Of a DNA stretch of 64,000 bases, positions 48,905 to 50,276 are shown piece after piece (positions within the stretch are counted from its first letter, which is position 1; each line of letters opens with the position of its first letter). The position numbers were made by a program, and so were the translations under genes. This stretch comes from Acidimicrobiia bacterium (lineage in GTDB: Bacteria; Actinomycetota; Acidimicrobiia; Spongiisociales; ZC4RG35). Under the pieces are notes generated by a model. It was not told the DNA's origin and did not search any database. It worked only from the letters and a program-made list of their open reading frames with translations. Location: the NCBI GenBank assembly GCA_965261135.1, contig OZ253443.1:2416841-2480840 (forward strand), written 5' to 3'.

Positions 48905-49912
48905 TCAAAAGCCGTGGTTCGTATCTTGGTCTTGCAGGTCTCCCATGATCTTCTCGATCCGTGGGTCGAATTCTTCTTTGAACTTGGGCAAGAGATCAAG
49001 CATCCACGCTCTAATGTCCTTCTGTTTCGCTGGTGAGTCGGTTATCGAGCCGTCTCTCTTTAATGAGTTGATTTCGGAGAACAGAAAGGGGTTATGTCTC
49101 CGCCAGTCCCACTCCAATGATGGCTCCGCGGTGATGGTTCTTTCAATCTCCTGGCGATCCGCCTCCAAGGCATCGAATATGCATTTGGTCAGATCCTTTT
49201 CGTGGGTCGCAATATGAAGGGTCACCCAGGCAGCCTCTTCAACCCCAAGAGTGACCGTGTACCAAATGCCTTTGTTAACGGGAGAAGGAAAGCCACGATC
49301 CTTATAGCTAAAAATCTGGATAGGTTGCTTTTTGAAAGCGCCTTTCTGGATCAGTTTGTCAACCAAAGGCTTGAAAAACTCTTGGTGGATCAACTTCTCG
49401 ACGGGCAGGTCGGTTGGACGCAGGGTGAGTTCCTTGTTCCAGCCGCCGGGGTAGACCACTTTGCGGAATCTGGGCTCGGGTTGTGAGCCTACCGGGGCCT
49501 TCACAGCTTCGATCTTGACACCGTAGAGCCGGGTCCCATCCGCAGTCCTCTCATTGAGCCAATGCAGAGCTTTAGCATGCTCACGGAGGAATTCGGGCGC
49601 AACCCATATCATCACTTGCGCCCCACGACCCGCCGCGTAGGTGAGCAACTTGCCCAGATGGTCGTGGTCGGTCCACTTCAATTGGTTCTCGATTGCAACC
49701 AAGGTTTCCTGGTCCGAATCGGCTTCTTTCGCCAGGATGTCCAAAGAGAACCGGCCTACTTGTGTTTCCTGGCCGACTAACTCCAACCGGAGCCCGATTT
49801 CCTCCCCCAATAGGTGCAGATTCTTAGCTAGCCATGGGGTGAATTCACGCGCCTCATGCTTCCATATTGTATGGACATCTACCTGCTCGGCGCCCGGTTG
49901 GCTCTCACGCAT
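48905..49912 (-). CDS. hypothetical protein with PD-(D/E)xK nuclease-like N-terminal motifs
   Basis: [40 protein letters not shown] resembles the D...E-x-K/Q ... (Q/K)xxxY core of restriction-endonuclease-like folds. GC ~50%. Start is the ATG at 49910-49912 (MRESQ...) or the ATG at 49943-49945. Confidence 0.45.
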   Translation of the reverse strand: [335 protein letters not shown]

Positions 49913-49919
49913 GAGTTCC

Positions 49920-50276
49920 CTATTCCTTCCTGACACCGCTGTCACCGGGTCTGATCACGAAGTCGCGACGGTCCCGATAGAGCAGCGCCCGGTTCAGCAC
50001 ATAGTCGTCAGACTCCAAGTCGATGTCCGGGCACTCCGTCATCGTCCAGTACTTGTAATCACCCAGGAACAGATAGTTTCGCTTCTGGTGGAAGAACCAG
50101 CATTCCACGCCCTCATCTGCGGCGATCCGGGCACAAAACGCAGCTAACAAAGCCTGCTGTCCGTCCCTTTTGATCACCACGTATTCGTGAGGCCAGGAAT
50201 TCCGGTATGTAACCGCCTCCCGCCACGGAGCACTGGATATCAACCCCATAATTTCCACAATTCGCTCTTTCGACAC
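49920..50276 (-). CDS. hypothetical 118-aa protein, partner of the nuclease-like gene
   Basis: GTG at 50274-50276 preceded by AGGAGGA at 5-nt spacing. Only the 3' third of the 362-aa track ORF is plausible. Ends 7 nt before the next start. Confidence 0.4.
   Translation of the reverse strand: MSKERIVEIMGLISSAPWREAVTYRNSWPHEYVVIKRDGQQALLAAFCARIAADEGVECWFFHQKRNYLFLGDYKYWTMTECPDIDLESDDYVLNRALLYRDRRDFVIRPGDSGVRKE

What the first reader, a model, noticed from the sequence alone, without database searches (positions are those of the whole stretch)
48905..50276. Two-gene cargo: PD-(D/E)xK-like 336-aa protein plus SD-led 118-aa partner
The larger protein has a restriction-endonuclease-fold-like core (…[38 protein letters not shown]…) followed by ~200 aa of unassigned sequence. 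The upstream partner starts at a GTG with AGGAGGA at ideal spacing and ends 7 nt before the next start. A nuclease-like protein co-transcribed with a small unknown partner in a foreign-GC, integration-scarred islet next to a TA module fits a candidate minimal defence system or addiction module. Neither protein could be matched confidently to a named family by eye.
Basis: inference. Interest (0 to 1): 0.55.

Follow-up and report, generated by a model that had tools for sequence, protein, structure and literature searches.

The report
Defence nuclease with undescribed small partner
The larger gene belongs to a known candidate anti-phage nuclease family, and the small gene in front of it is a real, very conserved partner from a protein family not found in the libraries searched, which also accompanies other nucleases in bacteria and DNA-methylase clusters in phages.

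Summary
Both minus-strand genes exist as described: the small gene at 49920-50276 (118 aa, GTG, AAGGAGGAG upstream) and the large gene at 48905-49912 (335 aa, not 336), 7 nt apart.

- 46 of 80 species-level genomes carrying it have a PDC-S11 gene directly downstream.
- In-frame fusions exist.
- It is much better conserved than the nuclease (78% against 55% mean identity).
- It also pairs with at least three other PD-(D/E)xK families.
- Distant phage homologs (hhalign 99.6%) lie in ParB / PAPS-reductase / methylase clusters, and two are fused to a methyltransferase-like C-terminal region.

**Verdict.** This is a two-part variant of a type IV-like restriction nuclease. I infer that the small protein is a targeting or sensing subunit. 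An addiction module is unlikely. The cassette sits in a low-GC insertion scar within a variable defence hot spot.

The parts
49920..50276 (-). Small partner gene (118 aa, GTG start, TAG stop). It belongs to an unannotated, very conserved domain family with the motifs APWREAVTYR, WPHEYV, YKYWTM, LNR and LYRDRRDF.
50280..50288 (-). Shine-Dalgarno-like AAGGAGGAG; the GGAGG core lies 5 nt upstream of the GTG.
   Evidence: Read directly from the minus-strand sequence.
48905..49912 (-). Large gene (335 aa, ATG start). It is a PDC-S11 family protein with a NucS-like PD-(D/E)xK nuclease domain followed by DUF4268.
49448..49870 (-). N-terminal PD-(D/E)xK (NucS-like) nuclease domain, roughly residues 15-155.
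49682..49741 (-). Catalytic-type motif: D58 (49739-49741) through E75-N76-Q77 (49682-49690). E20, near-invariant H85 and Y92 of a QxxxY-like GxLLTY lie outside or after this span.
   Evidence: E20, D58, E75, N76, Q77, L78 and Y92 are invariant in 40 homologs of 49-97% identity. Residue positions.
48917..49420 (-). C-terminal region, roughly residues 165-332, containing DUF4268.
50346..50443 (-). True 3' end of the EamA transporter gene (50342-51235); upstream copy of the direct repeat that brackets the cassette.
   Evidence: Repeat families D1, D4 and D9, all with spacing of about 1535 nt. Alignment. Translation gives the EamA C-terminus.
48811..48908 (-). Degenerate, frame-broken copy of the EamA 3' end just past the large gene's stop. 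It is the downstream copy of the repeat, that is, the insertion scar.
   Evidence: The aligned block is 82% identical overall with two single-base indels.

Best explanation
The pair is a two-part version of a type IV-like (modification-dependent) restriction nuclease.

The 335-aa protein is the effector. Its NucS-like PD-(D/E)xK domain would cut DNA, using E20, D58 and E75-x-Q77 for metal-dependent catalysis. The C-terminal DUF4268 would serve as a substrate-recognition or DNA-binding module, as proposed for MdgA.

The 118-aa protein is translated from the same mRNA, 7 nt upstream. It acts as a detachable N-terminal domain of the nuclease, and in some genomes it is literally fused to it. I infer that it is a targeting or sensing subunit. 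It would bind an invariant ligand, most likely DNA or a DNA modification, and so direct or license cutting of invading DNA.

Shown here:
- Family membership, fold and motif conservation of the large protein.
- Operon structure.
- Conserved synteny, gene fusions, and partner swapping among nucleases.
- Homology of the small protein to a phage protein that lives in methylase clusters.
- Defence-island context and the insertion scar.

Inferred, not shown:
- Nuclease activity.
- Dependence on DNA modification.
- Physical contact between the two proteins.
- What the small protein binds.

My confidence that the large protein is a defence nuclease is about 0.75. My confidence in the specific role given to the small protein is about 0.4.
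For: Large protein:
- It is a full-length PDC-S11 match, with three profiles at E 1e-62 to 1e-72.
- DUF4268 scores above Pfam's threshold.
- The nuclease fold is closest to NucS and to the modification-dependent enzymes AspBHI and MspJI.
- The motif residues are invariant.
[quoted passage not shown] It degrades glucosyl-hmC T4 DNA much better than unmodified T4-GT7 DNA, and E77A abolishes activity. The mutagenic primer encodes VIVENKLDD, which lines up with VAIENQLKW (E75) here.

Coupling of the two genes:
- The same gene order, with a 4-60 nt gap, occurs in unrelated genomes.
- 46 of 80 species-level loci have a PDC-S11 gene directly downstream, with a modal gap of 7 nt. Five of the 44 adjacent pairs examined are in-frame fusions.
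- Eight clusters of 408-453 aa fused proteins were read (seven of 434-453 aa and one N-terminally cut at 408 aa); the two compared by BLASTP carry the small domain at 72% and 75% identity.
- Pairwise identities of the two proteins correlate, r = 0.63.

Small protein as a module that serves effectors:
- It also sits next to NucS_C-type, 'EAKFWAGL'-type and Cas4-like PD-(D/E)xK nucleases and to SoFic.
- It is fused to the 'EAKFWAGL'-type nuclease, to DUF4268 alone and to an ADP-ribosylglycohydrolase.
- Mean identity is 78.5% against 54.9% for the nuclease. That fits binding to an invariant ligand.

Link to DNA modification:
- Phage homologs (hhalign probability 99.6%, E 1e-23) lie within 3 kb of ParB_N, PAPS_reduct/DUF3440 or methylase genes in 29 of 30 viral contigs.
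- Two are fused to a methyltransferase-like C-terminal region; Pfam confirms the domain in L203, while L207 rests on sequence similarity only.

Context:
- Neighbours include GmrSD, type I S subunits, Mrr, McrBC, an Eco57I-type enzyme and toxin-antitoxin pairs.
Against: - There are no experimental data for this clade.
- The canonical lysine is a glutamine (E-N-Q). This holds in all 40 aligned homologs and in roughly half of the more distant partner-less relatives, where my motif regex found it; MdgA has E-N-K. By my recollection, ExQ enzymes such as BglII are active, but I could not test that here.
Its equivalence with PDC-S11 rests on the PADLOC table, the domain description and a 9-residue primer translation.
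- PDC-S11 relatives work, or at least exist, without the partner. The partner may therefore be dispensable or purely regulatory.
- The small protein has no detectable DNA-binding fold. Its net charge, counted by hand, is about -2. Its best fold matches are insignificant.
- About 15 of 80 loci have no recognised partner gene beside it, and a 125-aa clade can stand alone.
- I could not model the complex.
Confidence: 0.5

Rival explanations
1. The small protein is a negative regulator or immunity protein of the nuclease. It holds PD-(D/E)xK effectors inactive until infection. Its phage homologs are anti-restriction inhibitors carried next to methylases, because methylated phage DNA is exposed to type IV nucleases.
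For: - The gene order, small gene first and tightly coupled, resembles regulator or antitoxin arrangements.
- One conserved small protein faces many different nuclease families.
- Phage homologs of about 95 aa lack the bacterial C-terminal LYRDRRDF tail and travel with DNA-modification genes.
- The tail has low model confidence on its own, as expected for a segment that folds on a partner.
Against: - Fusions to a methyltransferase-like region, to DUF4268 alone and to an ADP-ribosylglycohydrolase are hard to explain for a nuclease inhibitor.
- The small protein is much more conserved than the nucleases it would have to fit.
- It is not acidic like DNA mimics (hand count).
- More distant PDC-S11 proteins (33-40% identical) exist without it, and MdgA is usable as a single ORF in E. 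coli.
Confidence: 0.2
2. The pair is a classical type II toxin-antitoxin (addiction) module: nuclease toxin, small upstream antitoxin.
For: - A small upstream gene lies 7 nt from a nuclease gene.
- It sits next to another toxin-antitoxin pair in a mobile, low-GC islet.
Against: - The small protein matched no Pfam or NCBIfam family of any kind, including DNA-binding ones, and no solved fold.
- The small protein is more conserved than the putative toxin.
- In-frame fusions exist.
- Many family members lack the small gene.
- A relative acts as a phage-DNA-specific nuclease without reported toxicity.
Confidence: 0.08
3. The two genes are neighbours without a shared function. The small gene is an independent defence-island or mobile-element gene that happens to lie upstream.
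For: - A 125-aa clade occurs without an adjacent nuclease.
- About 15 of 80 loci have no recognised partner.
Against: - The neighbour is a PD-(D/E)xK nuclease directly downstream in 58 of 80 loci, and directly upstream in two more.
- The gap is a fixed short distance and the pairing recurs in unrelated genomic contexts.
- Repeated independent fusions exist.
- An IS that separates the pair in L042 shows the normal state is adjacency.
Confidence: 0.05
4. The large protein is a housekeeping NucS/EndoMS-like DNA-repair nuclease, not a defence gene.
For: The best structural match is NucS.
Against: - There is no Pfam NucS hit for this protein.
- The architecture differs: the nuclease domain is N-terminal and followed by DUF4268, with no match to a NucS N-terminal domain family.
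- GC is low, there is an insertion scar, and the neighbourhood varies between strains.
- The distribution is patchy across phyla.
Confidence: 0.03

Closest known systems
PADLOC phage-defence candidate PDC-S11, including (most likely) MdgA of Cell Host Microbe 2025 (PMC12366544; bioRxiv 10.1101/2025.02.28.640651)
   Same: - Full-length profile match.
- N-terminal NucS-like PD-(D/E)xK domain plus C-terminal DUF4268.
- The catalytic glutamate sits at the same place: E75 here, E77 in MdgA, in V(A/I)(I/V)EN(Q/K)L.
- Defence-island context.
   Different: - PDC-S11 is listed as a candidate of the PDC-S series. MdgA was reported sufficient as a single ORF.
- Here a conserved 118-aa partner is encoded 7 nt upstream, and is fused in some relatives.
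- This protein has Q where MdgA has K.
- No activity data exist for this clade.
Modular type IV restriction enzymes (MspJI, AspBHI; GmrSD)
   Same: - No cognate methylase-like ORF was seen among the translated ORFs of 44000-55000 (read by eye).
- DUF4268 is known as an add-on of GmrSD enzymes (PMC4619093).
- The logic of a separate recognition module joined to a nuclease is the same.
   Different: - It is usually a separate polypeptide.
- There is no NTPase.
NucS/EndoMS mismatch endonuclease
   Different: - The domain order and accessory domains differ.
- There is no Pfam NucS hit for this protein.
- The context is mobile defence, not repair.
Phage ParB_N / PAPS_reduct-DUF3440 (IbrB/IbrA-like) / DNA methylase gene clusters
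   Same: They contain a ~95-aa homolog of the small protein, sharing the W-x-AKTY, PHEY, YKYWTM and INR motifs (hhalign 99.6%).
   Different: - The phage proteins lack the bacterial C-terminal LYRDRRDFVI-PGDTG tail.
- They accompany or fuse to methyltransferase-like genes, not nucleases.
- The function of the phage cluster is itself not established.

Membership tests
PADLOC PDC-S11 (MdgA-type defence nuclease) | Full-length match to the family's profile HMMs | tested here: met
   PDLC04911 E 1.3e-72 (profile positions 9-314 of 318), PDLC04912 E 1.7e-63, PDLC04914 E 5.9e-62.
PADLOC PDC-S11 (MdgA-type defence nuclease) | N-terminal NucS-like PD-(D/E)xK fold | tested here: met
   [not shown]
PADLOC PDC-S11 (MdgA-type defence nuclease) | Conserved catalytic D...E-x-K triad | tested here: inconclusive
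   D58 and E75 are invariant. The third position is an invariant Q77, not K. ENQ also appears in roughly half of the partner-less relatives. MdgA has ENK.
PADLOC PDC-S11 (MdgA-type defence nuclease) | C-terminal DUF4268 | tested here: met
   PF14088 E 7.4e-7, 29.7 bits against a cut-off of 27; the match to the profile is partial (positions 45-139 of 140).
PADLOC PDC-S11 (MdgA-type defence nuclease) | Acts as a single gene | tested here: not met
   This clade has a conserved upstream partner that is sometimes fused. More distant members lack it. Whether the large gene is functionally sufficient alone was not testable.
PADLOC PDC-S11 (MdgA-type defence nuclease) | Protects against phage by cutting modified DNA | not testable with these tools
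   Known only for MdgA.
Type II toxin-antitoxin module | Antitoxin with a recognisable DNA-binding or toxin-neutralising domain | tested here: not met
   [not shown]
Type II toxin-antitoxin module | Toxin gene does not occur without its antitoxin | tested here: not met
   Of 80 metagenome loci encoding relatives of the large protein, only 5 have the small gene upstream.
Type II toxin-antitoxin module | Toxin arrests growth and antitoxin rescues | not testable with these tools
   Needs an expression experiment.
Modular type IV restriction enzyme (reader domain plus nuclease) | Nuclease domain of a restriction-enzyme fold, with no cognate methylase | tested here: met
   Fold. No methylase-like ORF was seen among the translated ORFs of 44000-55000 (read by eye; no family scan of every ORF).
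Modular type IV restriction enzyme (reader domain plus nuclease) | Recognition domain of a known modified-base reader class | tested here: not met
   The small protein model matches no solved fold. DUF4268's role as a reader is only proposed in the literature.
NucS/EndoMS repair nuclease | NucS N-terminal DNA-binding domain followed by a C-terminal nuclease domain | tested here: not met
   There is no NucS Pfam hit. The nuclease domain is N-terminal and followed by DUF4268.

The most novel reading that the evidence does not exclude
The 118-aa protein would define a new, widespread conflict-system domain, absent from all five libraries searched (Pfam, NCBIfam, PHROGs, PADLOC and solved structures).

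In phages, it is a fixed part of ParB / PAPS-reductase / methylase clusters, which I read as DNA-modification modules. In bacteria, it has been captured as a detachable sensor or targeting subunit by at least four PD-(D/E)xK nuclease families, and it also accompanies or is fused to Fic and ADP-ribosylglycohydrolase proteins.

On this reading, the host reads the phage's own modification, or its modification machinery, with a domain related to the one the phage uses to write it. That would turn single-gene type IV nucleases into two-component systems.

Its 70-87% identity across at least eight phyla of what appear to be mostly sponge-associated MAGs would then reflect strong constraint together with lateral spread.
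Probability: 0.3. Interest if true: 0.75.

Novelty: new variant of a known kind. Interest (0 to 1): 0.55.

Why it matters
- It refines a catalogued but uncharacterised defence candidate. In one large clade, PDC-S11 is a two-gene or fused system rather than a single gene.
- It exposes a protein domain of unknown fold that tracks restriction nucleases in bacteria and methylase clusters in phages. If the domain recognises a DNA modification or a phage modification enzyme, it would be a new reader class for type IV restriction. It could also be a handle for identifying what the phage ParB / PAPS-reductase / methylase module does to DNA.
- The partner census flags a further PD-(D/E)xK family ('EAKFWAGL' type, no Pfam or PADLOC model) and a 160-aa family as untested defence candidates.

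Tried and rejected
2. **Phage and plasmid record searches** (INPHARED phages, PLSDB plasmids) found no homolog of the small protein or of two viral-contig homologs.
3. **Does the K-to-Q change depend on the partner?** Rejected. ENQ also occurs in roughly half of the relatives without the partner.
4. **A zinc site from H30, C48, C59 and C82?** Rejected. C59 and C82 are not conserved in the 125-aa clade.
5. **Is MdgB's 'necessary upstream gene' a homolog of the small protein?** This cannot be tested because the sequences are not held. The MdgB insert carries a PDC-S26 hit, not PDC-S11, so the lead does not transfer.
6. **The 2026 H-NS preprint** that mentions PDC-S11 six times could not be opened.
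7. **Promoter and terminator scans** of 48600-50500 were at chance level. Rfam and tRNA scans found nothing in the region.
9. **dN/dS** was not computed. Synonymous sites are likely saturated across phyla, so amino-acid identities were used instead.

Full report
**1. The observation**

- The small gene runs from GTG 50276 to TAG 49922-49920 (118 aa). AAGGAGGAG lies at 50288-50280, which puts the GGAGG core 5 nt from the start.
- Seven nucleotides later, ATG 49912 opens the large gene, which ends at 48905 (335 aa).
- Public gene calls on an almost identical contig use the same two starts. Homolog alignments agree.
- GC falls to 0.52-0.57 across 48500-50250, against 0.60-0.68 on either side.
- The ORFs are not chance. 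The small protein has 1328 homologs and the large protein 2670.

**2. The large protein**

- *Family.* PADLOC gives a full-length match to the phage-defence candidate PDC-S11 (E 1.3e-72). Pfam finds only the C-terminal DUF4268 (E 7e-7). NCBIfam and PDB sequence searches find nothing.
- *Motif.* In 40 homologs of 49-97% identity, E20, D58, E75, N76, Q77, L78 and Y92 are invariant and H85 is nearly so. The nuclease motif is therefore conserved, but as D...E-x-Q rather than D...E-x-K.
- *The glutamine.* It also occurs in many more distant relatives that lack the small gene, so it is not tied to the partner.

**3. What is known of that family**

A functional-metagenomics study (PMC12366544; preprint 10.1101/2025.02.28.640651) isolated mdgA.
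[quoted passage not shown] The study's PADLOC table lists a PDC-S11 hit for that insert.
- MdgA protects E. coli against T4 but not T4-GT7.
- Purified MdgA degrades T4 DNA far better than unmodified T4-GT7 DNA, and E77A abolishes activity.
- The mutagenic primer encodes VIVENKLDD. That lines up with VAIENQLKW (E75) here.
- I could not obtain MdgA's sequence, so the equivalence is likely but not proven.
- MdgB, from the same paper, sits on an insert with a PDC-S26 hit and is a different family.

**4. The small protein is a genuine partner**

It has no match in Pfam, NCBIfam, PADLOC or PHROGs and no sequence match in the PDB. Several lines of evidence tie it to the nuclease.
- *Conserved synteny.* In an unrelated 5-Mb genome and seven further contigs, a 77%-identical copy precedes a 41-43%-identical DUF4268 protein by 4 nt. 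Neighbours there include type I S subunits, GmrSD_N and PDDEXK_9.
- *Census.* A scan of one genome per species found 255 loci, of which 80 were kept. In 46 of those 80, a PDC-S11-type gene lies directly downstream.
- *Gap and fusions.* The modal gap is 7 nt. Five of the 44 adjacent pairs examined are in-frame fusions.
- *Independent fusions.* The protein database holds further fused forms. Eight of 408-453 aa were read (seven of 434-453 aa and one N-terminally cut at 408 aa); the two compared by BLASTP carry the small domain at 72% and 75% identity.
- *Co-variation.* Pairwise identities of the two proteins correlate, r = 0.63.
- *Unequal conservation.* The small protein is much the better conserved, at 78.5% against 54.9% mean identity.

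**5. The partnership is one-sided**

I searched metagenome contigs with the large protein. Only the closest relatives have the small gene upstream: five loci at 44-59% identity. The many relatives at 33-40% identity do not. The partner is therefore an addition acquired by one subclade of a family that otherwise occurs alone.

**6. The small protein serves other effectors too**

| Partner | How it is associated |
|---|---|
| NucS_C-type nucleases that hit a distant PDC-S11 profile | 3 loci, directly downstream |
| ~340-420-aa PD-(D/E)xK family with xPD(L/I)...(I/V)E(A/V)KFWAGL; no Pfam hit above threshold and no PADLOC model | 6 loci downstream, 2 upstream, several fusions |
| Cas4-like nucleases | 2 loci |
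| Unknown 160-aa protein | 4 loci |
| SoFic | 1 locus |
| DUF4268 alone | fusion |
| ADP-ribosylglycohydrolase | fusion |

A second clade of about 125 aa was found with the third protein search. It lies in defence islands:
- after a helicase-nuclease gene;
- after GmrSD_N;
- after a HigBA-like toxin-antitoxin pair;
- before the EAKFWAGL family.

Across both clades, 33 columns are invariant.

**7. Fold of the small protein**

**8. Phage relatives**

- IMG/VR contains 30 distant homologs of 28-40% identity.
- They are about 90-100 aa, share the W-x-AKTY, PHEY, YKYWTM and INR motifs, and lack the C-terminal tail.
- A profile-profile comparison gives 99.6% probability and E 1e-23.
- In 29 of 30 contigs they lie within 3 kb of at least one of four gene types. 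ParB_N-like genes occur in 25, PAPS_reduct/DUF3440 genes in 25, DPPW-type DNA-methylase-like genes in 16, and class-I methyltransferase-like genes in 12.
- Two are fused to a methyltransferase-like C-terminal region. Pfam confirms the methyltransferase domain in L203; L207 had no Pfam hit and rests on sequence similarity and a motif read by eye.
- No homolog was found in cultured-phage or plasmid records.

**9. Mechanism**

The best-supported reading is a two-part type IV-like restriction nuclease. The large protein cuts DNA. The small protein behaves as its detachable N-terminal domain.

Four observations point to a role in binding some invariant ligand:
- the domain is joined to several nuclease families in bacteria;
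- it is joined to methylase genes in phages;
- it is fused to DUF4268 on its own;
- it evolves much more slowly than its partners.

I infer that the ligand is most probably DNA or a DNA modification, and that binding directs or licenses the effector. This step is inference.

The main rival is that the small protein is a negative regulator, with the phage homologs acting as anti-restriction proteins. The conserved but poorly modelled tail would suit either role.

A classical addiction module is unlikely, for four reasons:
- more distant relatives of the nuclease occur widely without the partner;
- a relative is usable as a single ORF in E. coli;
- fusions exist;
- the conservation pattern is the reverse of what I would expect of an antitoxin.

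A housekeeping NucS role does not fit the architecture or the context.

**10. Context in the window**

- *The cassette is an insertion.* A 98-nt, frame-broken copy of the EamA 3' end (48811-48908) lies just after the large gene's stop. It is 1535 nt from the true 3' end at 50346-50443.
- *Sister contig without the IS.* It shows the native order EamA, small, large, Phd/YefM, PIN, methylmalonyl-CoA mutase.
- *IS insertion in the window.* A ~1.34-kb ISL3-type element (47272-48617) has split the antitoxin gene, with up to 11 bp duplicated. The PIN toxin gene is left intact.
- *Strain variation.* Another sister genome carries the locus at both ends of a 2.73-Mb linear contig, perhaps an unresolved overlap of a circular chromosome. 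In one copy a MunI-like fragment and a Dam-like methylase split the mutase gene. In the other, McrBC follows. The site is therefore a variable defence hot spot.

**11. Verdict**

The large protein is a new member of a known candidate family. The coupling to an undescribed, widely reused small domain is the new element. I rate this a new variant of a known kind, of moderate interest.

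Noticed in passing
window 47272-48617 (IS); 48618-48672 and 47079-47267 (antitoxin fragments); 46693-47079 (PIN toxin): An ISL3-type element (transposase ORF 47376-48569, + strand) has split the Phd/YefM antitoxin gene after about 18 codons, with up to 11 bp duplicated. The PIN toxin gene stays intact. A sister contig (L001) has the uninterrupted 78-aa antitoxin. How the cell tolerates the toxin is open; a 62-aa TTG-started C-terminal fragment remains.
   Followed up: partly
window 48811-48908 and 50346-50443: A ~98-nt degenerate direct repeat, 1535 nt apart, brackets the two-gene cassette. 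One copy is the real 3' end of the EamA transporter gene. The other is a frame-broken remnant. The cassette contains no integrase.
   Followed up: yes
L208 and L209 (both ends of one 2.73-Mb sister contig): The same EamA / small / large / Phd / PIN locus has different neighbours in the two copies. In L208, a MunI-like fragment plus a Dam-like methylase split the methylmalonyl-CoA mutase gene. In L209, McrBC follows the mutase. This is strain-level turnover at a defence hot spot; the two copies may reflect an unresolved overlap of a circular chromosome.
   Followed up: partly
L012-L091 (genome-contig hits): The small protein is 70-87% identical across MAGs of Acidimicrobiia, Dehalococcoidia and other Chloroflexota, Vicinamibacterales, Gemmatimonadota, Latescibacterota, Spirochaetia, and Alpha- and Gammaproteobacteria. 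Many record names suggest sponge symbionts (Poriferihabitaceae, Palauibacter, COS/CAR/RHO/SB bins). That would imply lateral spread within sponge microbiomes; the sponge link is inferred from names only.
   Followed up: partly
L085:5360-6385, L077:5362-6606, L078:5352-7073, L211:3001-4257; fused in L036, L039, P0248, P0339: A ~340-570-aa PD-(D/E)xK-like family with the motif xPD(L/I)...(I/V)E(A/V)KFWAGLT..QP is the second commonest partner of the small protein. It has no PADLOC model and no Pfam hit above threshold, so it is an unlisted defence-nuclease candidate.
   Followed up: partly
L015:5346-5828, L021, L024, L028: A conserved 160-aa protein (RVWTDDEM..IRRGY..EKWFIFME..LFAHRSWTG) follows the small gene in four genomes. 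It matches no Pfam family, and the one member scanned (L015) matches no PADLOC model.
   Followed up: no
L178-L207 (IMG/VR contigs), e.g. L181:4989-5285, L197:4974-5249, L203:557-1363: Phage homologs of the small protein sit in a conserved ParB_N / DNA-methylase-like / PAPS_reduct-DUF3440 cluster, and two are fused to a methyltransferase-like C-terminal region. They have no PHROG or Pfam family.
   Followed up: yes
P0321, P0243, P0244 (proteins from the exhaustive search): The small domain is also fused to an ADP-ribosylglycohydrolase (P0321) and to DUF4268 without any nuclease domain (P0243, P0244).
   Followed up: partly
L042:5501-7000: In one Dehalococcoidia genome, a gene with a Mu-transposase C-terminal domain lies between the small gene and its PDC-S11 partner. 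The pair is separated by 2.6 kb.
   Followed up: no
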